Positions 4,020 to 61,869 are shown, numbered from the whole stretch's first letter. The stretch: DNA of 63,639 nucleotides, filler included, from Octopus bimaculoides (GCF_001194135.2; 8 parts of 7 records of this genome joined end to end with filler, not necessarily neighbours in it), one strand, 5' to 3'. A program made the numbers and translations. Notes: generated from the letters alone by a model not told the origin.

Positions 4020-4130
4020 CACCAAATGTGCAAGTAAAATGCTTATGGACTGGGGTCGATTTGTTCGACTAACCCCTTTAAGGCAGTGCCCCATCATGCC
4101 ATAGTTAAATGACTGAAACAAGTGAAAATA
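4020..4130 (+). mobile_element. SINE family A, 3' fragment
   Basis: TGGGGTCGATTTGTTCGACTAA...GGCAGTGCCCCA...AAATGACTGAAACAAG matches the 3' end of the full copy at 23545-24175. Confidence 0.7.
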
Positions 4131-13027: not shown

Positions 13028-13172
13028 GGTTTCAAATTTTGCCACAAGGACAGCCATTTAGTGGAGAGGAAGTGTCGATTACATCAACCCCACTGTTCAA
13101 CTGGTACATAATTTATCGACCTCGAAAAGGTGAGGGGCAAAGTCGACCTCGGCGGAATTTGAACTCGTCGCC
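13028..13172 (-). mobile_element. SINE family B fragment
   Basis: Reverse complement of GAGTTCAAATTCCGCCGAGGTCGACTTTGCC..GGTCGATAAATT..GTACCAG core shared with 56577-56805. Confidence 0.8.
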
Positions 13173-13811: not shown

Positions 13812-13972
13812 CGACGGGCTTCTTTCAGTTTCCGTCTACCAAATCCACTCACATGGCCTTCGTCGGTCCAAGCTATAGTAGAAACCACTCGCCGAAGGTT
13901 CCACGCAGTGGGACTGAACTCGAAACCATGTCGTTGAGAAGTAAGCTTCTTACCACATAGTCACGCCTGCGC
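13810..13972 (-). mobile_element. SINE family A, 5' part
   Basis: Reverse complement of tRNA-like head TGTGGTAAGAAGCTT...GGTTTCGAGTTCAGTCCCACTGCGTGG plus GTGGATTTGGTAGACGGAAACTGAAAGAAGCCCGTCGT. Confidence 0.85.
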
Positions 13973-43394: not shown

Positions 43395-44236
43395 GAAGAA
43401 AGAGATAGATAGATAGATGGATGGATAGATAGATAGATAGATAGATAGATATGCTTCTTTATTGGCCACACAGGGCTGAATACAGAGGGGACAAAATACA
43501 AAGTAGAGTTTTTCTGTTTGGGAAGAGGAAGAGAAAAAAAAGGAAAGGAGGGGGGGGTAGAAATTCGATCAAAAGGGATCGTTAAAAAAAAAAAAAGCCG
43601 ATCAATAGAGATCGTGTATCACAGAAATGTCATGATGTAAAAAGGGGAAACAGATTAGGTTTATCCAGAGAAAGAAAAGCCTACAGAAAAGACCACGGTA
43701 ACCTCGGGCAATAATGTCATGCAAATAAACGCATTACAGTAAGTGACTCACTTTTTTCCTTTCTTTCTTTTTTTTGATTCATAGAATTATGCTCAAGGTA
43801 GCTTCATCAATCACAAGTGCCATCTTTGCTACATTCACCCGTCTTTTTTTTAAACATTCACTTGACAAAACTTCCCTCTCTACTCTCACCCTCTTCAAGT
43901 GATACTTGAAGAAGTTGATGAGAAATTCACCAGAGAGGAAAGTGTTTGCCTCTAGATCTTTCAGACGCGAACACCATACACATTCTTTCGCCATAGCCAC
44001 AAGTACGATGAAAATGGCTCTTCCTTCCCGTTTCAAGGAAGGAGGCGCGACAATATTCACGATAGACTCGGTTGATAAACTGACTCGTCCCACACGCGAT
44101 AGCAGTCGTTCGACATAGGCCCACAGGTCGGAAATGGTTGGACACTGTACGAGTGTGTGCAGAATGGTTTCGTCGCTCTGACCGCATCTCGGGCAGGTCA
44201 GCCCCGTGTTTCTCGAGCCATGCCTGTAGAGCTTGT
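43395..44236 (-). mobile_element. 5'-truncated Tx1/L1-clade LINE (ORF2 C-terminal zinc-finger region, 3' UTR, (TATC)n tail)
   Basis: KLYRHGSRNTGLTCPRCGQSDETILHTLVQCP...(CX2CX7HX4C) ...MAKECVW..R...FFKYHLK. UTR ends ...TTGTCCCCTCTGTATTCAGCCCTGTGTGGCCAATAAAGAAGCAT then (TATC)n. Confidence 0.9.
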
Positions 44237-44597
44237 AGATAGCTTCCTCTTTCTTTCTATCACAGCTAAACATTGTCATGCTACACATTTTTAGGCGTCA
44301 TAACTTTTGATAGCTTTTCATTGTGATCATACATCTATAACATTTTCAAAGTTGTGATCAAAAGGCTAAACTTTTTCACAGCTATAAAATGCCTTAGCAC
44401 TGATCAGTCACTGCTCCAAGTTAAACTGCAACCCACATCCTACTTATTGGCAAGTATTCGCTCGCTAACTTACCAAGCGGCCTGCAGATGCGTTGCTTCC
44501 TTTTTGTCTTTTCTACCTATACTGTAATGGCTTAGACATTTTTGAACTAGCAAACTCTATAATAGGAGAGTATTGTAGTATTGAAGCATTGTGTATT

Positions 44598-44854
44598 GTT
44601 TGTAAAGAATAAAAAGTTTTGAATGGTACAACAATGCACTATAATACAAAAAATGGACTATATACCTGTTGTAATTTAGTTATCTATAGTCCGATGATAT
44701 TTCGGAATACAATTCCTTCTTCAGATATTCTTAGATAGAGTCGCTTCCGAAATATTATCGGACTATAGATAACTAAATTACAACAGGTATATAGTCCATT
44801 TTTTGTATTATAGTACATTGTTGTACCATTCAAGACTTTTTATTCTTTACAAAC
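44598..44854. repeat. Near-perfect inverted repeat, 110-bp arms with 37-bp spacer
   Basis: 44598-44707 pairs with 44745-44854 with only a few mismatches. Confidence 0.9.
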
Positions 44855-45826
44855 TCTATAATATCTCTACATAAGTGTTCCTCATGCACGCATTCAGTGA
44901 CGTTGCTAGAGTGTGTGCCATCCGGACAGCCTTTGAGTCTGCCACCCCTCCCGGGTTAGGGTCTATACAGCCTGTACAGGCTTATATAGAAGACCTAGAA
45001 GTGCCCCCCATAAAGTGTTACCCGGGACATATTGTTCCATCGTCCCCACTCCCAAACTGCACCCACCTCTTTTCCACTCGTTATCCCCACTTTTCAACGC
45101 TAAATATAATTTATTCAAACTTTCCAGTTCAGAAATTCAGTCTTTGGCGCTCATTAATTTCCGACATTTTCCCCCAAATATCAGTCTTCAGAAGTTCTAA
45201 CCATGTACTGTATTGATCTCACCAGTCTGGAAGGACCAAAGACAATGTCTTTCTTCTTCCAGTTAAATGAATAATAATGAAATATGGCATCCAATTAGAA
45301 AAAGCCGCATCACTCGTCTGCTGGTCAGTTTTAATTTACTGATTATATTAAAATTGTATCTTTTTTAGGAGAAAATGAAAATAGGTTTTGGTCACTAATC
45401 TTAGAGATTTTGGTCCTTTGCGTTTATCAAACTTCAAAGGATAAGTTTAAATCTACTCACTGTAAAGAAATTAATTTCATTGTCACAGGCATACCTGAGT
45501 GGTTAAGGAGTTTGTGATTACATATTAATCCAACAATGCGGCAACTCAGACAAGTGTTTTCTACTATAGCCCTGGGCCAACCAAAGCCTTATGAGTGGAT
45601 TTGGTAGATGGAAACTACCAGGAGTTCACTGTGTGTGTGTGTGTATAGAGATAGAGAGAGGGGGAAGAGAGAGTGAGAGAGAGCAAGCAATCTGCATATC
45701 CTACTTAACGTGGATGTATTGTAAGAATGCCATAATACTGCAGTGTTCGTCTGGAGAAAACACCTCCTATAGACATGTATCGTTAAAAAGCGCAGAAGTA
45801 TCAGCAACAGTCGAAAAATGTCAAGA

Positions 45827-46045
45827 ACTGACGGCGGAACTGCTAGATCATATGATTTCTTCGCGGTTGCGCGTCGTCAGCAGCAGGTATCCGCAATCAC
45901 CGCATGCTAGCCAAACTGATTAGTCACTGGTTTGTTTTATATCAGTTGAGGCGAAGTTTTGGTAGCATGCGGTGATTGTCAATACCTCCAACTAATGACG
46001 GGCAAACACACAGAAATCACGTGATCTAGCAGTTCCACCGTCAGT
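45827..46045. mobile_element. Fold-back MITE
   Basis: ACTGACGGCGGAACTGCTAGATCA..GCAATCACCGCATGCTA pairs with TAGCATGCGGTGATTG..TGATCTAGCAGTTCCACCGTCAGT. Confidence 0.7.
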
Positions 46046-46067
46046 GCTAGATATTTTTCGTCTCTCT

Positions 46068-46117
<50 letters not shown>

Positions 46118-47861
46118 TTGATATATGTGTGTATATCCGTGTGTGTCCCCTTGTCTTGACATCACATGATAATTGAAAAACGAGCGTCACTGTCATACAA
46201 GTAAACAATGTTGTTCATGAGAAACTGAATGTGGGTTGCATAGCAAACCAATTCAGCTATTTTGCTAGAGTTTGAACGAAAGGAACTGAAGTAGACTAGT
46301 ATTGCCTACATGTGGTAAACATGTAGTAAATGCATGCTCGTACTGCTAACAGTGAATGCGTATTTTCAAGGTGCTTGAGTCCGTGTTGTGCGTATACTGG
46401 GTGCTTGAATTCATGTTATATGCTCTTGCATATACACATGTCGATGTGTGTGTGATGTATACATGTTCAAATGTATGCGTGACTAAGCGGNNNNNNNNNN
46501 ATTTTGATGAAGAAACAGTTTAAAAAAAAAAATTTAACTCTTGTACTGGCGATGGCCAGTGTACTTGCCGACTTTATCTCGCTTCCGTCACTGGAGGTAT
46601 CAGTAGAAGAATGCTTTGGTGTTTGATCAGTTTGATCAGGTGGTAAAGTCGACATTGTTTTAGACTCAAGGTGAGTTATCTTTAGGCGGTCGATGCTAAC
46701 TGATTCGTTTCTGAAGATGAACAACGAGCAAATCTATAAACCTGAGAGTAAAATATAATGAATAATAACAACCAAATTTCTTTCAGTTATCAAACCATTT
46801 TTTTTTTATATAAGAAGGATCATTGTATTTTAAAAAGCAAATTATAATACTAACACCGACAATATATTAACAATAAAACGATATTGAATGGTCGCAAATG
46901 ATTTAAATATTTATTTCCAGAAGAGAAACTAGTTGGAAATATTTCATAACATCCTGTTCACACGAATGAAAAGCTTATAAATATAATTAGTTATGAAAAG
47001 TATAATTCCAGTAAAAAAATATAAATGTTTGCTTTGTATACAAAATCGAAATTCGATAATAATATTACATGATTCTAAAATGTCAGGAAAAAATGCGTGG
47101 AATTTCTATAATATTATTGCATTCTTTTTTACTTGTTGTGCCTCCTATCAGCCATTGTATTGAATTTTGGGTAGGTGACACTTATTATGTTGTTGATGTT
47201 GCTGATCCTGTAATAAGTTTATAATTCGTTTGTGATCTTTGGCTGAAATTTGAACTCAATTCTTAATGAAATCAGAGACATTTCATCTCTATCAATATTG
47301 GCCTTGGGAAAATCACCGGCGCTTTGTTAGTTCCTTTCTCCATTCTCAAGAATACAGAACTCGTGCTTGAGTGAGATTATTCTTTTTAACGCTTAACCTG
47401 CATAGTTTCATGTCACCAATTTCGGATCTTTTTGGTTTGACGGGCAACATTTTTCATTAATGTTTTATGTAGTGTTTTTGGTACCGAAACACTTTCAAAC
47501 TTCGTATACTTGTATATTTTGTATTATAGAACAGATAAAAAATTTTGTATTCGAAGTTATTTCATGTAAAAAGTTGTCGTATTTCGGTAATTTCAACCAA
47601 TCACTGGCGTCTATTGAGGTGAAAACAATTAATGGCGTGGAATGTAAACAATGGTGTCATGGGATCTTTTCCCTTGAATAAAATTAGTGCCGTTGTTTGT
47701 CAACAACAACTACCCGTGTTACTCTTATTTATGACATCGTTCGTGTGATTGTACTGGTTTTNNNNNNNNNNNNNNNNNNNNNNNNNNNNNNNNNNNNNNN
47801 NNNNNTTAATTAATTAANNNNNNNNNNNNNNNNNNNNNNNNNNNNNNNNNNNNNNNNNNNN

Positions 47862-47897
<36 letters not shown>

Positions 47898-48669
47898 CAC
47901 TCACACACACACACAGTACATACTCTCTTCACTGATACCGAAATGAGAGTGTCTATCTACTTTCCACATTTTCGTATTTTTCTCCGAACCAAATTTTAAA
48001 TTTAATTCACTTGAAGAAAACGGTAATCGAATTATTCATGAAAAAAAAAACGCGTCTGAAACAGCTGTAGTGAACCTTTAACCCATTTGTGTTCTGTTTT
48101 CATACGAGCATATGTATGCATTTATATATGCACTTATACGTGTGTACATGCAGGCGCGCGTGTTTATGTGTATATGTGTGTTCTTCGGTTGCTTGCGCGT
48201 GTGTATGCCCAAGAATATGTTACGAGTGTACACCATGGAAAATGGCACACAGAATAATAATTGTTAGGATAACAACAAGCGCAAATGTAAACCATCTGTA
48301 CGCTAAGACATAAAATCTTTTCAAATAGTGCAATAATTTCTATGAAATGATATAATTTATTCCACTGCTCAATATAGATTCTGTTACGCTACTGCTTGTC
48401 TTTGCTGAGCATCGCTTGTATCCAATGCATTATGCTCTTTCTTTTGTATTTGTTTCAATTATGATTTAAAATTCAATTCCTTCTGCCAAAATCACAAATA
48501 CAATTATTCATAAATTAGATTGGCAAGAAATAGCAATTATAATTTATAACATTTAAGGAGAAAACAATTCTCGTAACCAAACCCATACGAAAATACGAAT
48601 AATCGATTACAATATCGGATATATTTCTAAATGCACATTTACAGAAAGTTCAAAACATTTTCAGTTGTA

Positions 48670-49564
48670 TTGGGTCATCCCATAAATAATGTGTTTTTTT
48701 TTCATACTTCTTTTATTCATCAAAATTACGATAAAGTTCTTTTTTAATCTAAAATATACTCTCCTTCATTTTCTACAATGCTCTTCCATCTATCTGGTAG
48801 ACTTGCATGGCCCCTCTTCCAAAATTCACGTATCCGTGACGAAAAATACTCCTCCACTACTGTTCTGACCTCGTCTACAGAATTCTTATTTTTTCCGTCC
48901 AGATGATTTCGAAAAATGCAGAATAAATGAGAATCAGATGGGGCAATGTCCGGCGAATATGGTGGGTCGGGTATCATTCCCCATTCAAACTGCTCCAGCC
49001 TCTGGAATGTCATCCTCACTGTATGTGGTCGAGCATTATCCTGATGGATGAACACCTTTCGTCTTGAAACCAAAGGTGGTCGTTTTTACTTCTGGCGCTG
49101 GTGTCGATGAATGGTTGAAAGACCAAATCCAAACTTCTCTGCAAGTTCCTCAACAGACACGATGGGATTTTGTTCCACCAGGTTTTGCAGGACGTCCTTA
49201 TCGTGCTCTACAGATCTTCCAGAACGTGGCTCGTCATCTAGGCTGTAGTTTCCGGTTCGGAATTTCTGGAACCACCGTTCACACTAGCTTATGCATATTG
49301 TCCGATTCTCATATGCTGCATTAATATTCCTCGCACTTTCCGTTGCGTTGTTGCCTTTATTGAACTCATAGAGCAAAATATGCTTAATATGCTCTTTTGT
49401 TACTTCCATTGCAGGTTTTTAAAAATTATTGTTTAAATCGAACTGCACTCTTCAAAACTTGCACTAAGAGTATGTACAAGGTTGATGCAGGTAGTTTATC
49501 CCGTTCCGCTCCGACTTTTAGTTCACACAATTGAAAAAGACGCATTATCTATGGAATAACCCAA
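48670..49564 (-). mobile_element. Internally deleted mariner element with both TIRs and TA TSDs
   Basis: TIRs TTGGGTCATCCCATAAATAATG / CATTATCTATGGAATAACCCAA. MEVTKEHIKHILLYEFNKGNNATESARNIN...EPRSGR fused to HQDNARPH...PPYSPDIAPSDSHLF...EGEYILD*. Confidence 0.92.
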
Positions 49565-49695
49565 TATAATTGCAACTTGTTTATTTTGGCTGCAGTAACT
49601 AGATAGTTATATTATAAGTACGTATCCATAGATTGTGACCTCGATGTTTACAATCTTGCCAGTTTTACTTGATTGTGAGAAGTGAAGCTGTTAAA

Positions 49696-49855
49696 ATGTT
49701 GGTTGCTGGTGTTCTTCTATTACTTATTGTCGTCTGGTTTTCTTTTCGTGTTCTACGAAGTTATTCGAAATCATTGTCAGATTGCAAAAACTTACCATGC
49801 ATGAAGAGTTGGTACCTAATCGGCGATATACCTAAACTACACGGAAATAATAGAG
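49696..49855 (+). CDS. CYP4V-like: Cytochrome P450 CYP4V-like, coding exon 1 (membrane anchor)
   Basis: MLVAGVLLLLIVVWFSFRVLRSYSKSLSDCKNLPCMKSWYLIGDIPKLHGNNR, phase-1 donor AG/GTTAGT. Splices in frame to exon 2. Confidence 0.85.
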
Positions 49856-50777
49856 GTTAGTGAGTCTCATTAATAACTTACCGAACATATCCATAAAACT
49901 AAATGTGTAAACTTACTTCTCTCTTTGTAAACGATGGGTGTGTTTATGTAATTATTGCTTAATTCAAATCAACACTGACTTCATCTAATTCAATGTTATT
50001 CACGAAATAAACTTACCAGTTTTTTTTACTAATACGCCTTTCTAAAAGGCAACAGGTTTGATATTCAGTGAGGTTCGGCTGCTATTTCTCCTTCCTCATG
50101 TTTCTATATACAGACTCAGCATCAGTAAGCGAAAAAAATAATTAATTCTCTAAAATACCATGAGACTTAATTTAGTGATGATCCAGCTGTTGTTTTGTTC
50201 CAGTTCATCCGTAAGTCAGACGTCCTATGATAAAATCAATATTGGAGAACTGTTGTTATGGAAGCAGCTTTCCAGGCAATTTATGTTAACTCTTTCATTA
50301 CCTTATTTTTTTTTACACTCAACCTTTGTTTCAATTGATATAGAAATTAATAAAGCATTTACTAAAATAACTTTCTCATTATTTCGCTGATATTTAGAAA
50401 ATATATAAACATGAAATTTTGATGGTGAGTTTTAATTTAAGTTATTTTATAACTGAACCAAGTGCAGTTTTAGGTGCAGTTTCATGAAATTAAGCACATT
50501 TTCAGGCGGGTTGATAACAAAGTAGTTAAATAAGAATAACTGTGCAGCAGTGTCTTCAGAGAGTGGTGTGTGGTGTTATCTGCATTTTACATTAAATTCC
50601 GACTATTTAACTGAGACTAGTTTATCATGCCACTTGCATCAGGGATTCACAGTCTCATCTCTTTGCCTGTTATACTGCTACAACCACACTCTCTGATATC
50701 CTAAATTGGCTAATCGCATACCACCTCCAAAAACCTCATACGATACACCAGTGTCATAATATTTACAGAGTCTCAAG

Positions 50778-51190
50778 GTGGGGAGCTGGCAGAAACGTTA
50801 GCACGTCGAGCGAAATGCTTAGCGGTATTTCATCTGCCGCTACGTTCTGAGTTCAAATTCCCCCGAGGTCGACTTTGCCTTTCATCTCTTTCAGGGTCGA
50901 TAAATTAAGTACCAGTTGCCTACTGGGGTCGATCTAATCGACTTTACCCCTCCCCCAAAATTTAGGGCCTTGTCCCTAGAAAAAAAAAAGAAACATTCGC
51001 ACGCCGGGCGAAATGCTTACCGGTATTTCGTCGGTCTTTATGTTCTGAGTTCAAATTCCGTCGAGGTCAACTTTGTCTTTTATCCTTTCAGAATCGATAA
51101 ATTAAGTACCAGTTACGTACTGGAGTCGATCTAATCGACTGGCCCCCTCTCCCAAAATTTCGGGCCTTGTGCCTAGAGTAGAAAAGAATA
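50778..51190 (+). mobile_element. Tandem pair of SINE family B copies
   Basis: Two head-to-tail copies (~50778-50995 and ~50996-51190), each with GAGTTCAAATTCC..GAGGTC.ACTTTG..GTCGATAAATTAAGTACCAG and a GGGCCTTGT tail. Confidence 0.85.
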
Positions 51191-51254
51191 TTTACAGTCT
51201 CAATATCGAAGCCCTACAAAGACCACTATAGCGAATCTGTTTCATAAAAATACT

Positions 51255-51386
51255 AACTTTAAATGGCTTATTATGGTAAGTTTTTTACCCAGCCATATAG
51301 TTTCGGATTCAGTTTCACTGCATAGCACCTTGAGCAAGTGTCTTCTGTTATATTATCTGACCGAACAAAGCTTTGTTAATGGATTT
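51255..51386 (+). mobile_element. SINE family A 5' part, truncated at the Tx1-like insertion
   Basis: CAGTTTCACTGCATAGCACCTTGAGCAAGTGTCTTCTG...CAAAGCTTTGTTAATGGATTT stops where the element tail begins. Confidence 0.6.
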
Positions 51387-51387
51387 C

Positions 51388-52890
51388 GATTTTTTATTGC
51401 CTATAAAAGGCTACACGTAGAAGCATAAAGACAATACATACGTAACAAACATAAACTCGGGGAACTAAAAATTACAAAAATGAGATGAAATAATAAGAAA
51501 AAATAAAAGAAACGAATGATAATATGAAAGAATGAAAATGAGGTGCAAAAAAAATAATATTCGACCCCCGAATATTATTTTTTTTTCCCCAGTTTTTCCT
51601 TTTTTCAAATTAAAATTCCTTTTACTTTGGTAATTCCATTCTTTTCAACACATCGTATTCAACTACCGAAGGAGTAATCTCATACAACCAAAACCATTGT
51701 ACCATTTTTATATTTCCACTAAATCCATCCATGAATCTCTCATACTTTTCTTTAGGTATCATAATACCTCTCTCATCTGCTTCAAAACTGTTTCCTGGCA
51801 GCTTCACTCTCCCCAGTCCCTTCCATTTCGCAACTTTTCTTTCCGCATCCACACTCTTCGCATACGCTACCAAGGGACCCTTATATTTGCATAGTTCTTT
51901 TCCTCTCTCTCAATGCATATTTTTGGCTTCAAGACTTTCCTTACCTTTCTTGCGTTCAACTGAATGCTCTCTTGTCTTAGATTTCTTCCTTCTTTTGGGG
52001 CTGACAAACCCATCACTCTCTTCCTTTGTTTCTTTCACCTCACTCTTTTTCTTCTCTTTAACTTCCTGGGTACAATTCTCCTCAATTTTATCTTTCTTTC
52101 TTTGTAATCTCTCCTCCGTCTGCTCGTTCCCATGCTCCTTCTCCACCACCTTTTCGTTATGCGAGAATTCAAATAAGGGGCACTGGGTATTCATGTGTCC
52201 CCTCACCCCGCATATATGGCAATTCGGTCTCCGTCCCTCCACCACCACATTCAACGTTTTCTCTTCCTCAACCCCAATCTGGTAGGGGATCCGCTCTATA
52301 TCTTCAAATGTGGAAAAAAGCCACATTTCAACAACTCCAAATCCCCAACAGTTCAACTTTTTCGTCTCTCCAACAGGTCCAAGCTCAGGGTCGTCCTCGG
52401 TGGCAGCCAGAACAGCTGCAACCAACCACTCGGTTTTAATCTCTGGTGGTACCCTTGGTATCCTAATTCGGATACTGCGGCTTCCCCAGTAAGTGGGTAA
52501 TAGCACCACATTCTCTGTCCTCAGAATGGTAGTGGAATGTAAGGCCGCCTCTTCGTTTGTGGCAAACCTCACCTCCACCGTACTGAATCTTCTTCCTCTG
52601 CCAATGTACGTTGTCTTCTTTACAATCTCATCTAAACATTCTTCTATTTCTTCTTCCGTCACTCTCTCTATCTTGTTGGTGACGACCGCTTGTATTCTGT
52701 ACACCACTGTTTTCCAACTTTTATCATTTGTAGTCTCTGTCGGAGGGATCAACTAAATAGTATCTCCCTCTTTTCTTATTAACTGCTCACTCCTCAATAT
52801 TTCTTCCATATTGACACTAATCTGCTTTGCTTCCAATAGTGTGGCTGTTCTCGCCGCAGCGGTTTTTGCGTAGCTCTCCATACCAGAGGG
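51388..52890 (-). mobile_element. ORF1-only (RT-less) Tx1/L1-like retroelement
   Basis: ATG at 52881 (MESYAKTAAA...), one in-frame TAG at 52755-52753, then the 51910-52752 frame with zinc knuckle CHICGVRGHMNTQC. One frameshift leads into ...VEYDVLKRMELPK* (51622). About 230 bp of AT-rich UTR and hairpin+AATAAA follow. No APE or RT between ORF1 and the tail. Confidence 0.8.
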
Positions 52891-52954
52891 ACTACGTTTC
52901 TCTATTCACCCAAAATGGGGAAAATAAAAGAACAGCAAAATTCAACAACAGCAG

Positions 52955-53320
52955 GAAGTGGCACCTCCAACGTACCATACCTTCGTCCTCCATTGTAAAA
53001 CGCCACTACATCCTTTATGTCTCTCAGACACTCTTCCACCTCTTCGACACTTGCAACTTCAATCCCTCTGGCTGTTATGTTCAGCGCTCGGCATGTTACC
53101 ACTTTCCTCCCCGTGCTCTTCGCTATTTTCCTCGGTGGTGCTAGCCTCGGGCAATCCCCCTCCCTCCTCAGTAGGTTGTCAAACTACTCAAAATCTCTGT
53201 CTTCCACCTCCAGCTCCCGCATTCGCAGATGCTCGGCCGACAGGCTGCTGCCTGTCACCGCAGAACAGCTGCTTGTCTGGGACCGCACACCTCCATTATT
53301 CGCTACATCACCCATAAATG
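52955..53320 (-). mobile_element. 5' fragment of a diverged paralogous ORF1
   Basis: LLRREGDCPRLAPP...KVVTCRALNITARGIEVASVEEVEECLRDIKDVVAFYNGGRRYGTLEV aligns with LIRKEGDTI*LIPP...KTVVYRIQAVVTNKIERVTEEEIEECLDEIVKKTTYIGRGRRFSTVEV of the adjacent element. Confidence 0.7.
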
Positions 53321-53463
53321 GGGAAGCTAAACAAATTTTTGAACAATTCAAAAATTATCAATTCAACACAATATTTAACAATTCAGTAAATTAACAACAG
53401 TAATCCAATAAACAAAACAATATCTCACATATGAGCGATATCATAATACGACAACCAGTCAAG

Positions 53464-53830
53464 TGACAATTAGCAGTTGTCGATGTGAAGTGCTTTCCCG
53501 ATGCAAATACTGCTGACATTCCTTTTTGCCAATCAGTCCCTTTCCGATGCTGATACACATATCCTTTTTCCAGTGACGAAAAGTCACTGATCTCGAAAAA
53601 GTGTAAACAAGCAATATTAAATCTCTGAGCGCGGTATACAGAGTAGCTGCACGACATCGTGAAATATATTTGCCACTTCAATGTGGCTAAGCCTTAAGGG
53701 TGGGCGCTACTGTGGCTAACTCTTAAGGGTGGATGCTACTTTTTCGAGATCAGTGATTATTCGTAACTGGAAAAAGGATATATGTATTTGCATCGTGAAA
53801 GCACTTCACATCGACAACCGGTGATTGTCA
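53464..53830. mobile_element. Fold-back MITE with ~90-bp TIRs
   Basis: TGACAAT..GTTGTCGATGTGAAGTGCTTTC.CGATGCAAATAC[insert]ATATCCTTTTTCCAGT.ACGAA..TCACTGATCTCGAAAAAGT pairs with 53737-53830. Confidence 0.75.
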
Positions 53831-54081
53831 TACGGTGATGACGGATCAATACCCAGAGACCCGGTTCCGTGTGTATCACGTCAGATTGTAGATGGGAAGG
53901 ATGACTTCCCTTTGCAAATACAGATAGGGCACAGAGAGTGTGTCAATAGCCATCTGGAGGAGGTGTCTTCCTGGGGCTACAAGCTACAGTAGCATCCACC
54001 CTTAAGGGATAACCACATTTAAGTGGAAAATATGCTTCACGATGTCGTGCGGCTGCTGTGTATACCTCGCTCATATATATA

Positions 54082-54112
<31 letters not shown>

Positions 54113-54639
54113 GTGTGTATATATATGTGTGTATATATATATATATATATGTGTGTATATATATATATATATNNNNNNNNNNNNNNNNNNNNNNNNNNNN
54201 NNNNNNNNNNNNNNNNNNNNNNNNNNNNNNNNNNNNNNNNNNNNNNNNNNNNNNNNNNNNNNNNNNNNNNNNNNNNNNNNNNNNNNNNNNNNNNNNNNNN
54301 NNNNNNNNNNNNNNNNNNNNNNNNNNNNNNNTATATATATGTGTATGTACGTATGTATGTGTGTACGTGTTTATGTGTGAGGGTTTGTGTCAGTACCCTC
54401 TACCACTTGACAATTGGTGTTGCTTTGTTTACGTCCCCGCAACGTACGCTTCGGCAAAAGAGACCATGATAATAAATATCAGGCTTTAAAAAATGTATAC
54501 AATGCAGTCGATTTATTCGACTAAAATCCTCTAAGTCGGTGCCCCAACATGGCCGCATCCGTGGATGCATGGAATTTGTTGTCATCAGCTTAAGTTTTTT
54601 CTAGGGAAACTTTTCTCACATTAATCAAATCTATTTCAG

Positions 54640-54752
54640 AGTATTTTAAGAGACTAATGAAATGCCTTGAAGAATTTCGAGAACGTGGCATACTTTGCTT
54701 ATGGTCAGGTATCCAGCCTGCTGTTTTGATTTTCAAAGATGAATATGTACAG
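54640..54752 (+). CDS. CYP4V-like: CYP4V-like coding exon 2 (113 bp)
   Basis: Acceptor CTATTTCAG, (E)YFKRLMKCLEEFRERGILCLWSGIQPAVLIFKDEYVQ, donor CAG/GTAAGG. Confidence 0.9.
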
Positions 54753-55439
54753 GTAAGGGATTTAAAAATAATTTATGCGGTTATTATTGGAGAAAATTGA
54801 CTCTTCATGTATACATGAATGCACTGAGTGGGTCATTAATTTACTAACATACCGGAGAAATGTTCTAACATACAAGAATTAATTCTTGCTATATCTGCAG
54901 AAGTAACAGCAGCAATACGTTTGATTAGATGGGGGTATGTTTTGTAGAGTTTTGCCTTTTAGCTGTATAACTTACTTTGTTACGCCTCTGCTTAACTAAG
55001 CAATAGTGAAGTCAATGAGGGTGTGTTGTATGTTGTAGTCAAGACGTAGCTGCCAAGACTTTCTGTAATTAAGCCCTACTGTCTTAAAAGGAGTATACAC
55101 CGGATAAGAAATTCCTGATGTACGATACAGACAATATGATCTTTTTGTTGTGTTCGAAACAGAGGAGAGAGACACCGCTGATATAGTAATCACCGTAACG
55201 ACCCTATAATGAGGGTGGAACTTGGGAACAATTAGAAAGTTTGAGATTCGACATAACCGAAGTGCAAATTGACATAATCGGCTTTTATTCTCAAACCCAC
55301 ATCTGTTCTAGAGATCTGAATGTAAAAGTCGTTCGCATGCAATAAATTTAGAATGAGGACATATTCAGTTGAACAGAAACGAGTGGAGGAACTAGGTTGC
55401 AGTGAAGTGCAGTGTTTGAGATAGTATATTAGAGCATGA

Positions 55440-56200
55440 AGGCCATCAATGTGAGGGATTTCTACATGTTGTGGATAGACTACTGTTTGTCTCAGTTCAT
55501 GCAACCATTCAGCGTCCTTCTCGTGCTCCTTGTCTTTGCTCCAGATATCACTCCAAAACCTTTGGCTCTCAACCTTATCCAGTATCAACTTTTCATCTGT
55601 ACACTCTCCATTTATTTCCTTGTAGAATTTCTTCTAATCTACTCTGAATAACCTATTCTGGTGGTAACCCTTCATTCTTTGGTCGTATCTTACCATCTTT
55701 GCTTTCTTTGCTACGTGGCGCTGTTTCAGTTCTTCCATTACCACTTTCAGGCCCTTTCTTTCAATATCATACATCCTGTTCAATACCCTGTTTTTTTGTT
55801 CGCCTTTTAGCTCCGCCTTCTCTTTTCGGTCTAACACAGAAATGTCCCTCGAGAGCATATCTAACCGCGCCTGTATTCTTCTTTTCCATCATTGATCTTT
55901 TCTTTTGTCACTCACATTATATTGTTTTGTTTTGACATCAACACCCACATTTTCTGCTACAACAATACTTGCTGCCTTGATCAAATTCTTTGTTTCTGTG
56001 ATGTTTTTTGTTCTGATGTATTTCAGAATTTCATTGACATTTTTCGTTTCTTGGTTCAATTTCCACTGATCAACCTTTTTAAGTTTGCAAACAATGTCGC
56101 TATCGTTCTCCTGTAGCTTTGTCGTAGATTGCCTTTTGTCCATCTGTCATGTCACCATTTAATTTTATTGTATTTTTCCGACCATCTATACGTCTCTTAT
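55440..56200 (-). mobile_element. Decayed R4/Dong-like LINE, region N-terminal to RT
   Basis: NEILKYIRTKNITETKNLIKAASIVVAENVG, EELKQRHVAKKAKMVRYDQR..YHQNRLF and FWSDIWSK..H..DAEWL. 5' junction is at (AAC/AAT)n ~56200. Confidence 0.85.
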
Positions 56201-56576
56201 TATTGTTGTTGTTGTTGTTGTTATTATCACCTTCTTTGCAACAATAGTTGCTGCAAAGCCAATAGTCTGTCTTCCTTTTACTGCTACACTTCCTCTCAAT
56301 TCCTTAAACCTTTCTTATCCTTCAGCTTCCGTCTTTTCTCATCTTTTCTTTTCATCTCACTCTCGACTTTGCCTTCTTCTACTCATTTTATTACTCTTTC
56401 TATCCTCCTACTTACACTGATTCTCCTACCACTTCTCGTTCACGTATGAAGTTCACGTAGTCCTGCGTTTCTTATCAGTCGCTGCCACTTTGTTTTAACT
56501 TAGAGGATGTAGAACTCTGTAGTCTCTCATTAATTTCTATCCTTTCAACATTTTCCTTGAAGAAATGTTAGATTCT

Positions 56577-56805
56577 GTGAGCTGGCAGAAACGTTAGCAC
56601 GCCGGGCGAAATGCTTAGCGGTATTTCGTCTGCCGTTACGTTAAGAGTTCAAATTCCGCCGAGGTCGACTTTGCCTTTCATCCTTTTGAGGTCGATAAAT
56701 TAAGTACCAGTTACGCACTGGGGTCGATGTAATCGACTTAACCCCTTTGTCTGTCCTTGTTTGTCCCCTCTATGTTTAGCCCCTTGTGGGCAATAAAGAA
56801 ATAAG
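56577..56805 (+). mobile_element. SINE family B, young full-length copy with Tx1-type 3' tail
   Basis: GAGCTGGCAGAAACGTTAGCACGCCGGGCG head. Tail TTTGTCCCCTCTATGTTTAGCCCCTTGTGGGCAATAAAGAAAT resembles the LINE tail at 43451-43497. Confidence 0.9.
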
Positions 56806-56916
56806 AAATGTTGGATTTTTCGCTCATCACAGCAAGTACACGGTACTATTTTTATCGATTTTACTACATAGCAAAAGTCATGCCAACACAATATTGGAGT
56901 CTGTTTAATCACACAT

Positions 56917-56949
<33 letters not shown>

Positions 56950-57199
56950 CGCACGTATATATAAGCATGTACACTCACATATGTATATGTATACACACAT
57001 ACATGCACACATACATAAAGTCTTCTTGTAATGTAGAGTCACACGGAATTAGTACACTAGTGGCAACGGTAGAGAACAATTGCATAATGAGAGGCGCAAA
57101 TGAATTGGACCAGAACCGTGTTGCTGCAAAGTGAACATCCAAACGTTACAGCAATGATTGTATTAAACTTATATCAGTATTGATACTGCTAGTAGAGAC

Positions 57200-57410
57200 A
57201 GCGAGTTGGCAGAATCGTTATTGCGCCGGGCGAAATGCTTATTAGTATTTCGTCTGTCTTTGCGTTCTGAATCCAAATTTCGCGCAGATCGACTTTGCTT
57301 TTCATCCTTTCAGGGTCGATAAATTAAGAACCAGTTGCGTTTTGTGGTCGAGTTAATCGACTGACTCTCTCCCGCAAAATTTCGGGCATTGTGCCTAGAA
57401 TAAAAATGAT
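57200..57410 (+). mobile_element. SINE family B copy
   Basis: GAGTTGGCAGAATCGTTA..GCCGGGCGAAATGCTT...GGTCGATAAATTAAG...CGGGCATTGTGCCTAG. Confidence 0.8.
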
Positions 57411-57532
57411 TATTTATTTTGCTACTAAATTATATAAGCTGATTTCTGCAATAAATATTCTAGTTGATACTTTCAAAACATTCTTGCTTCTATTTTTATT
57501 GATTTAATTTACATTAATTTCTTTTCATTCAG

Positions 57533-61589: not shown

Positions 61590-61869
<280 letters not shown>

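What the first reader, a model, noticed from the sequence alone, without database searches (positions are those of the whole stretch)
43451..56805. A LINE, a half-LINE and a SINE share a 3' hairpin + AATAAA with compensatory stem changes
Seen, three 3' ends: Tx1 LINE (minus, 43458-43497) TTGTCCCCTCTGTATTCA-GCC-CTGTGT-GGC-C-AATAAAGAA; SINE B (56761-56800) TTGTCCCCTCTATGTTTA-GCCC-CTTGT-GGGC-AATAAAGAA; ORF1-only element (minus, 51393-51420) CTACGTGTA-GCCT-TTTAT-AGGC-AATAAAAAA. The last two have the same 4-bp stem / 5-nt loop, with a C-G to T-A covariation. Established: 'stringent' LINEs (e.g. eel UnaL2) recognise a 3' stem-loop shared with partner SINEs, while mammalian L1 is 'relaxed'. Inference: a stringent Tx1/L1-clade RT drives a three-member mobilisation system.
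Basis: partly seen in the sequence, partly recalled or inferred. Interest (0 to 1): 0.8.

Follow-up and report, generated by a model that had tools for sequence, protein, structure and literature searches.

The report
Octopus retroposons share hairpin tail
In an octopus genome, a LINE fragment, a short SINE and a multicopy element that encodes only an RNA-binding protein end in related tails with a predicted small hairpin and no long poly(A), which likely lets L1/Tx1-type copying enzymes pick them out, an arrangement well known in other LINE groups but rarely reported for this one.

Summary
The three 3' ends are real. Over the 32 nt before AATAAA, LINE and SINE B match at 26 and the ORF1-only element and SINE B at 20; 130 other AATAAA sites reach at most 14. 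The ORF1-only element is a multicopy HAL1-like family, found in runs of three organisms. Better evidence lies outside the finding. Six more copies of the same SINE body carry two other tails, yet all nine tails align on a 4-bp/5-nt-loop hairpin with double changes at 4 of 4 pairs (few independent events, homology of those tails not shown). None of the three has a long poly(A); AAUAAA is predicted to be partly paired in LINE and SINE B. Likely: related L1/Tx1-type LINE families recognise a structured 3' end, and the SINE and half-LINE borrow it. A single shared enzyme is unproven. L1-clade tail sharing is published for plants and algae; I found no animal case in the library.

The parts
43458..44234 (-). 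5'-truncated L1/Tx1-type LINE: C-terminus of ORF2 (from KLYRHG, with zf-RVT; stop at 43779) plus a 3' UTR of about 320 nt ending at AATAAA
   Evidence: 60% identical to P0005 (RT + zf-RVT); relative P0158 has endonuclease + RT + zf-RVT and its best solved match is human L1 ORF2p, E 1e-50
43458..43495 (-). LINE 3' tail: C-rich box, predicted lower stem, hairpin 43464-43476 (C.C at pair 2, or a 3-bp stem with 6-nt loop), AATAAA 43458-43463
43446..43457 (-). 3' copy of a TSD-like repeat (11 of 12, one indel; 5' copy at 44236-44246), running into an (ATCT)n microsatellite; no poly(A)
   Evidence: seen in sequence
56575..56802 (+). SINE B: tRNA-like head (A-box-like 56583-56593, B-box-like 56645-56657), multicopy body, LINE-like tail with hairpin 56779-56791 and AATAAA 56792-56797; no poly(A)
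   Evidence: box consensus recalled
56560..56574 (+). 15-bp target-site duplication of SINE B (second copy 56803-56817, one mismatch); it begins with the same 7 letters that end the SINE
51622..52881 (-). ORF1 of the half-LINE: 419 codons plus stop, two in-frame stops (codons 43 and 324), two predicted RNA-binding folds plus a CCHC knuckle, a K/E-rich linker and a C-terminal stretch of about 95 aa without family
51390..51621 (-). 3' UTR of the half-LINE (about 230 nt, no ORF2) ending in hairpin 51399-51411, AATAAA and a short A run; abuts an oppositely oriented SINE of another family; no TSD found
52905..53480 (-). Upstream second ORF1-like fragment with its own leader; about 1.2 kb is missing here relative to contigs of organisms B and C
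   Evidence: (records 14 and 18)
50783..51187 (+). Dimer of the same SINE body with tail type A (hairpins 50965-50977 and 51162-51174), flanked by one TSD-like repeat (50759-50776 / 51188-51203)
57203..57406 (+). SINE with tail type A, hairpin 57384-57396
13030..13166 (-). SINE with tail type A', hairpin 13040-13052, flanked by TAA/TAG microsatellites
26179..26345 (+). SINE with tail type A', hairpin 26325-26337, flanked by TAG/TAA microsatellites
61590..61765 (+). SINE with tail type A', hairpin 61741-61753, followed by a TAA microsatellite

Best explanation
An octopus L1/Tx1-type LINE fragment, a tRNA-headed SINE and a multicopy ORF1-only element end in related 30-40-nt tails with a predicted small hairpin and no long poly(A), and the ORF2 protein of this LINE family or a sister family likely binds that structured end to copy the two non-autonomous elements. 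Shown: the tails, their similarity, the target-site duplication of SINE B, and the ORF1-only layout and multicopy state. Inferred: the SINE body swapped its tail for the LINE's last 40-55 nt; the half-LINE arose by loss of ORF2 from a related LINE and kept the terminal signal while the rest of its UTR diverged; ORF2 holds the stem-loop, the few A-rich bases behind it anneal to the nicked target (the TSDs begin with the letters that end the elements) and reverse transcription starts there. AAUAAA would be part of the RNA handle rather than a poly(A) signal. The two other SINE tails (A, A') would come from further LINE families with the same hairpin shape.
For: Tail similarity beyond background: 26, 20 and 16 of 32 against at most 13-14 at 130 other AATAAA sites. 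LINE and half-LINE 3' UTRs give no BLAST hit to each other, so only the terminus is shared. No poly(A): LINE and SINE B pass from AATAAA(GAAAT) into TSDs of about 12 and 15 bp, whereas human L1 ORF2p needs about 20 A (PMC10830416, passages). The half-LINE is a family: 332, 252 and 235 contigs laid in runs of organisms A, B and C, most under 95% alike; non-self contigs in all three carry a variant at 51618, with 35-45 letters to the contig end, so they cross the ORF1 stop into this UTR; loose ends of 4 X1 contigs before 51440 read, reversed, as a homologue of the tail ending in the 6 letters that precede the SINE B hairpin, median length 48 (aligned by eye, hairpin letters not displayed). RNAalifold finds the 4-bp/5-nt hairpin unprompted in 9 tails: 34 of 36 cells paired, 4 of 4 pairs with double changes including G-C to C-G flips, 0 of 500 shuffles reach the score; background for such a hairpin is 2.1% of positions. 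LINE and SINE B share a predicted lower stem with a compatible A-U to G-U change.
Against: One copy each of the LINE tail and the SINE B tail; their family consensus was not seen. The LINE copy breaks pair 2. The half-LINE double change is transition-only (5-22% by chance) and its lower stem is absent in this copy. Loops differ among the three. Depth falls from 3184 to 118 (X1) in the bin that holds the half-LINE hairpin, so no other copy was seen over it, and 5 X14 contigs leave the window sequence at 51424 with different letters. The nine-tail covariation rests on about three related groups, on 46-nt pieces that I cut near the 3' ends, and on unproven homology of tails A/A' with B; the tool warns that related sequences can beat all shuffles. 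Folding z-scores are weak. No TSD for the half-LINE. A profile of its ORF1 found no ORF1 among 181 fetched proteins, mostly ORF2 relatives, so its parent LINE is not identified. No function tested.
Confidence: 0.6

Rival explanations
1. Shared descent without strict recognition: the SINE and the half-LINE inherited a LINE end, and a relaxed ORF2 copies any ribosome- or ORF1-associated RNA; the hairpin at most positions the start, as the Alu stem does for human L1.
For: Covariation among the trio is weak and the LINE copy breaks a pair. Unpairing the Alu stem only modestly lowered human L1 priming (PMC10830416, passages). Only 3 of 58 SINE/LINE pairs involved the L1 clade (PMC3747384, section 1.4).
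Against: No long poly(A) at any of the three ends. The terminus is kept while the rest of the UTR gives no hit. G-C to C-G flips across tail types.
Confidence: 0.2
2. The hairpin and AAUAAA act in RNA 3'-end formation or stability (termination, cleavage, nuclease protection), not as the handle for reverse transcriptase.
For: AATAAA is the canonical poly(A) signal (established) and sits at all three ends; the half-LINE has a short A run behind it.
Against: The elements end 0-5 nt after AATAAA without added A; AAUA is predicted paired in LINE and SINE B; tails A and A' keep the hairpin without AATAAA; a SINE with an internal Pol III-type promoter would not normally use this signal.
Confidence: 0.12
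3. The hairpin belongs to the SINE lineage: tail B evolved from tail A/A', and the LINE family captured a SINE end by template switch.
For: SINE B has the same loop (CUUGU) as 5 of the 6 A/A' copies, while the LINE loop differs.
Against: The half-LINE, which has no SINE body, ends in the same type of tail; the LINE UTR shows no SINE body remnant; the usual direction is LINE to SINE (PMC3747384).
Confidence: 0.08

Closest known systems
Stringent L1-clade pairs: LINE1-1_ZM with ZmSINE2/ZmSINE3 (maize, sorghum); L1-1_CR with SINEX-3_CR (Chlamydomonas) (PMC3472496, PMC3747384)
   Same: L1-clade LINE and tRNA-SINE share the last 40-50 nt; predicted hairpin with compensatory stem changes and conserved loop letters.
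   Different: Animal (cephalopod) host; no long poly(A); an ORF1-coding non-autonomous element shares the end too; covariation here is not yet shown across copies of one family.
Eel UnaL2/UnaSINE1 and zebrafish ZfL2-1/ZfL2-2 (L2 clade; PMC4176376)
   Same: 3' stem-loop with upper and lower stems, shared by LINE and partner.
   Different: Different clade; there the requirement and loop specificity are proven by assay; here the loops differ between supposed partners and nothing is assayed.
HAL1 (half-L1), HeT-A, Ag-Sponge: ORF1-only non-autonomous LINEs (PMC5786205, discussion passage; the HAL1 paper itself was not held)
   Same: One ORF1-type protein, no ORF2, LINE-type 3' end, multicopy.
   Different: ORF1 resembles ZCCHC3/DUF4283-type RNA-binding folds with a CCHC knuckle; ends in a structured tail; a second ORF1-like unit lies in tandem upstream.
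Crocodilian SINEU with Tx1-Mar (PMC4494074)
   Same: A SINE proposed to be mobilised by Tx1-clade LINEs in an animal.
   Different: That link rests on shared targets, ages and 5' heads, and SINEU has poly(A); here the link is a shared 3' tail.
Octopus SINEs OR1/OR2/OK and the tRNA-Core / tRNA-Deu repeat classes (named in PMC4824008, PMC4758252, PMC8967140)
   Same: tRNA-headed, very abundant octopus SINEs.

Membership tests
L1 clade in the wide sense (L1/Tx1) | ORF2 with APE endonuclease, RT and C-terminal zinc-binding region, closer to L1 than to R2 | tested here: met
   The window piece has zf-RVT (under the curated cut-off) and is 62% identical over 154 aa to P0158, which has all three domains and matches L1 ORF2p at E 1e-50 against R2 at 4e-22. 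CR1, L2 and RTE references were not in that library.
Tx1 clade | RT groups with named Tx1 elements in a tree | not tested
   No named Tx1 references were available; motif resemblance is recalled only.
Tx1 clade | Target-sequence preference | tested here: inconclusive
   One copy, beside an (ATCT)n repeat.
HAL1-like half-LINE | ORF1 present, ORF2 absent between ORF1 and the 3' end | tested here: met
   230 nt from stop to tail; non-self contigs in 3 of 3 contig runs cross the stop into this UTR.
HAL1-like half-LINE | Multicopy family rather than one deleted copy | tested here: met
   332/252/235 contigs laid, mostly under 95% alike; 3 ORF1 relatives at 59-71% identity in O. bimaculoides. No single non-self contig was listed that spans ORF1 to the hairpin.
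HAL1-like half-LINE | ORF1 and ends traceable to a cognate autonomous LINE | tested here: inconclusive
   Atlas look-alikes are ZCCHC3/DUF4283/CCHC clusters, and the ORF2 relative P0102 carries ZCCHC3 domains, but a direct profile search found no ORF1 match; 3' match to the LINE is 16 of 32.
HAL1-like half-LINE | Target-site duplication | tested here: not met
   No exact repeat of 7 nt or more between the 3' flank and the upstream region to 54180; the 5' side is rearranged, so this may be decay.
tRNA-derived SINE (SINE2) | A/B boxes, multicopy body, short length, TSD | tested here: met
   box consensus recalled; ARAGORN calls no intact tRNA.
SINE superfamily (CORE, Deu/Nin or Meta) | Conserved central domain | tested here: inconclusive
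   Short body motifs were not found in the supplements searched (one file each not searchable in two papers); a Deu/Nin resemblance is recalled only.
Stringent LINE/SINE pair | Shared 3'-terminal sequence | tested here: met
   35 of 41, E 4.6e-8, one copy each.
Stringent LINE/SINE pair | Stem-loop with compensatory changes across copies and families | tested here: inconclusive
   Weak for the trio; strong-looking across 9 tails but few independent events and unproven homology.
Stringent LINE/SINE pair | Tail required for retrotransposition and bound by ORF2 | not testable with these tools
   Needs a cell assay or binding assay.

The most novel reading that the evidence does not exclude
Octopus L1/Tx1-type LINEs are stringent and poly(A)-independent: a 4-bp stem with a 5-nt loop is a shape code that several LINE families read, and one SINE body has swapped among at least three such tails (with G-C to C-G stem flips and different target preferences) while an ORF1-only, possibly tandem-ORF1 half-LINE rides the same code. 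This would be an animal case of tail-dependent recognition in the L1 clade and a natural comparison for how mammalian L1 became relaxed.
Probability: 0.35. Interest if true: 0.7.

Novelty: new variant of a known kind. Interest (0 to 1): 0.5.

Why it matters
Whether the ancestral L1 recognised a specific RNA end, and how mammalian L1 lost that, is an open question that so far rests on plant and algal examples (PMC3472496). An animal L1/Tx1-type LINE with a tail-sharing SINE, a half-LINE and no poly(A) gives a testable system, and it would name a driver for part of the large octopus SINE expansion (SINEs are 11.6% of the O. vulgaris genome, PMC13282606). The concepts themselves (shared tails, half-LINEs, tail swapping) are established, and curated repeat libraries that I could not see may already list these families.

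Tried and rejected
No genome is held for this window, so the genome-wide covariance test could not be run. Pattern scans for the tail or SINE body: viral contigs 0 hits; 6 metagenome and 6 bacterial-genome hits, all chance matches without the downstream tail or any match to the window. Locus search with P0005 in viral contigs: none. Rfam over 43400-57500: 16 matches, all below gathering score, mostly microsatellite look-alikes. A profile of the three tails found no fourth copy in the window; two other ORF2 fragments (32428-32636, 928-696) have lost their 3' ends. Expression: no RNA holder listed; 59 RNA reads of X19 laid, all under 95% alike, none in the bin with the hairpin, so nothing on RNA ends. 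The C-terminal 95 aa of ORF1 has no Pfam family and no longer homologue. An extended 8-bp stem over all nine tails is only 78% paired; the lower four pairs do not hold in one register. Rows left out of the nine-tail alignment: the SINE copy at 29735 (tail lost in an N gap) and the hit at 4043 (shares only about 38 nt of body; its tail lacks this hairpin). Earlier findings of the scan: three look-ups, nothing. Three papers asked for by id were not held (the HAL1 paper, the octopus genome paper, a CORE-SINE paper). A search on Dong/R4 targets gave nothing useful, so the idea that tail A' belongs to a TAA-targeting R4/Dong LINE is recalled and untested.
Full report
Setting. The window is repeat-rich animal DNA with N gaps; the closest ORF1 relatives are Octopus bimaculoides proteins at 59-71% identity, so the host is an octopus. 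Family-level evidence therefore comes from copies in the window and one lay of public contigs and reads.

Observation. A post hoc pattern for the hairpin plus AATAAA matches only these three places, with none in 100 shuffles. A less circular control anchors on all 133 AATAAA sites and compares the 32 nt upstream: LINE and SINE B match at 26, half-LINE and SINE B at 20, half-LINE and LINE at 16, while the other 130 sites average 7-8 and reach at most 13-14. The tails are related; the half-LINE link to the LINE is the weakest.

The LINE. Homology to ORF2 starts at KLYRHG (44234) and runs to a stop at 43779, so this is a 5'-truncated piece of 0.78 kb. It is 60% identical to P0005. The full-length relative P0158 has endonuclease, RT and zf-RVT, and its best solved match is human L1 ORF2p, far ahead of R2. 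This places it in the L1 clade in the wide sense; 'Tx1' was not tested with named references. An 11/12-nt repeat with one indel flanks the piece (44236-44246 and 43446-43457), so the element ends at or just after AATAAA with no poly(A).

SINE B. It spans 56575-56802, with A- and B-box-like motifs (consensus recalled), a body found in seven more window copies, and a 15-bp TSD with one mismatch. The TSD starts with the same seven letters that end the SINE, as expected if the RNA end anneals to the nicked target (inference). Only this copy has the LINE-like tail.

The half-LINE. ORF1 (52881-51622) has two in-frame stops and is followed by 230 nt of UTR and the hairpin. The Atlas ranks CCHC, ZCCHC3 and DUF4283 clusters nearest to its relative P0002 (leads only), and an ORF2 relative, P0102, carries ZCCHC3 domains in front of its endonuclease. 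A direct profile search of 181 fetched proteins found no ORF1 match. Laying contigs on 51340-53560 at 80% likeness gave 332, 252 and 235 records in runs of organisms A, B and C, most under 95% alike. A variant at 51618 in 3, 4 and 3 contigs, with 35-45 letters to the contig end, shows non-self copies crossing the ORF1 stop into this UTR, and several joints link ORF1 to the UTR within one contig. So the ORF1-only layout is a family trait. Against my reading: depth drops from 3184 to 118 (X1) in the bin holding the hairpin, so no other copy was seen across it. Four X1 contigs have loose ends before 51440 whose 30 displayed letters, reversed, align by eye with the window's tail and end in the six letters that precede the SINE B hairpin; their median length of 48 would reach about AATAAA, but those letters are not shown. 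Five X14 contigs leave at 51424 with other letters. No TSD was found. Contigs of organisms B and C hold about 1.2 kb more between 52937 and 52961, where the window has a cut second ORF1-like frame with a similar leader motif.

In the ungapped register the SINE B stem is G-C, C-G, C-G, C-G; the LINE has C.C at pair 2; the half-LINE has T-A at pair 4. The four differences between half-LINE and SINE hairpins are all C to T or G to A. Of 210 ways to place four such transitions, 46 keep four standard pairs with a double change, and 10 do so with Watson-Crick pairs only. One such pair is weak evidence. Folding energies are unremarkable (z -0.4, -1.5, -1.5), and with 63 nt of context the SINE B hairpin is outcompeted.

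The SINE body hits were chosen by BLAST on the body. Of eight further hits, six have an intact tail of two other types: A (50783, 50989, 57203) and A' (13166, 26191, 61618). One is cut by a gap and one shares only 38 nt and has another tail; both were left out. An alignment of the whole copies already put their loops in one column. On nine 46-nt tails RNAalifold predicts exactly one helix, the same 4-bp/5-nt hairpin, with 34 of 36 cells paired and double changes at all four pairs, including G-C to C-G at pairs 2 and 3; no shuffle of 500 and no slid control comes near. Such a hairpin occurs at 2.1% of window positions. Caveats: about three groups, hence few independent events; I cut the pieces; homology of A/A' with B is plausible but unproven; their partner LINEs are unknown. 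Tail A copies have TSD-like flanks, and tail A' copies sit in TAA/TAG repeats, which suggests different enzymes reading one shape. LINE and SINE B also share a predicted lower stem that pairs AAUA of AAUAAA, with an A-U to G-U change; it does not extend to all nine in one register.

Mechanism. Most likely (0.6), related L1/Tx1-type ORF2 proteins bind a structured 3' end and prime from a short A-rich overlap with the target, without poly(A); SINE B took the LINE's end by tail exchange, and the half-LINE kept it after losing ORF2. Human L1 ORF2p needs about 20 A and is only modestly affected by unpairing a template stem (PMC10830416, passages); zebrafish L2 needs its cognate stem-loop, above all the loop (PMC4176376, passages). 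The absence of poly(A) favours the second type. The differing loops leave open whether one enzyme or sister enzymes serve the three. Rivals: descent with relaxed recognition (0.2), a role in RNA end formation (0.12), capture of a SINE end by the LINE (0.08).

Comparison and novelty. Ohshima's survey found 58 SINE/LINE pairs, only 3 with L1-clade tails, from maize/sorghum and Chlamydomonas, with a hairpin and compensatory changes in the plant case (PMC3472496, first of three parts read; PMC3747384, section 1.4, passages and part of Table 1). Crocodilian SINEU is tied to Tx1 by targets and ages and has poly(A) (PMC4494074, passages and one section). ORF1-only LINEs and SINE tail exchange are described (PMC5786205, passages and supplement search). 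Octopus repeat papers count L1-Tx1 and SINE families without naming partners in the passages read (PMC13282606 with its supplement; PMC8967140; PMC10294476; PMC4824008 and PMC4758252; PMC3531059; PMC9004415). Five searches on this point (listings only beyond the papers named) showed no report of an octopus or other animal L1/Tx1 tail shared with a SINE. The library lacks most subscription journals, Repbase and Dfam entries, the 1994 octopus SINE paper and the octopus genome paper's supplement, any of which may hold it.

Verdict. Real and partly as read: a new variant of a known kind. The trio's tails are related and the half-LINE is a family, but the claimed covariation is thin, and the stronger structural signal comes from other SINE tails. 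Interest 0.5.

Noticed in passing
window 50783-51187, 57203-57406, 13030-13166, 26179-26345, 61590-61765: One SINE body carries three tail types in this window; all end in a 4-bp stem with a 5-nt loop (mostly CUUGU) with flipped stem pairs. Partner LINEs of tails A and A' are unknown.
   Followed up: partly
window 52905-53480 (-): A second, diverged ORF1-like frame upstream of the half-LINE ORF1; contigs of organisms B and C hold about 1.2 kb more at 52937-52961, so this is two half-LINEs in tandem or a two-ORF1 element.
   Followed up: partly
window 50759-51203: Two tail-A SINEs form a head-to-tail dimer flanked by a single TSD-like repeat, as if inserted as one unit.
   Followed up: partly
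window 51510-51622: The half-LINE 3' UTR holds a long imperfect inverted repeat centred near 51566.
   Followed up: no
window 53464-54086: Nested inverted repeats (three arms, 83-91% alike) at the 5' side of the half-LINE; contigs of organisms B and C start at 53505-53507.
   Followed up: no
window 51270-51386, 45540-45616, 33877-33993, 24030-24106, 19796-19858, 13827-13889, 18813-18909: A second abundant SINE family; the copy at 51270-51386 is cut where the half-LINE ends and its other part was not found upstream.
   Followed up: partly
window 44598-44854 and 45809-46063: Two palindromic elements of about 255 nt (MITE-like); the second gives a weak hammerhead match at 45823-45896 (E 0.011, below gathering score).
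   Followed up: no
window 48690-49600 (-): Decayed mariner-like transposase fragment (motif seen by eye, family recalled).
   Followed up: no
window 32428-32760 and 696-928: Two more ORF2 fragments of the same LINE lineage without 3' ends; the first has an internal deletion and is followed by CCCTAA-like repeats and a repeat also found at 47476-47761.
   Followed up: partly
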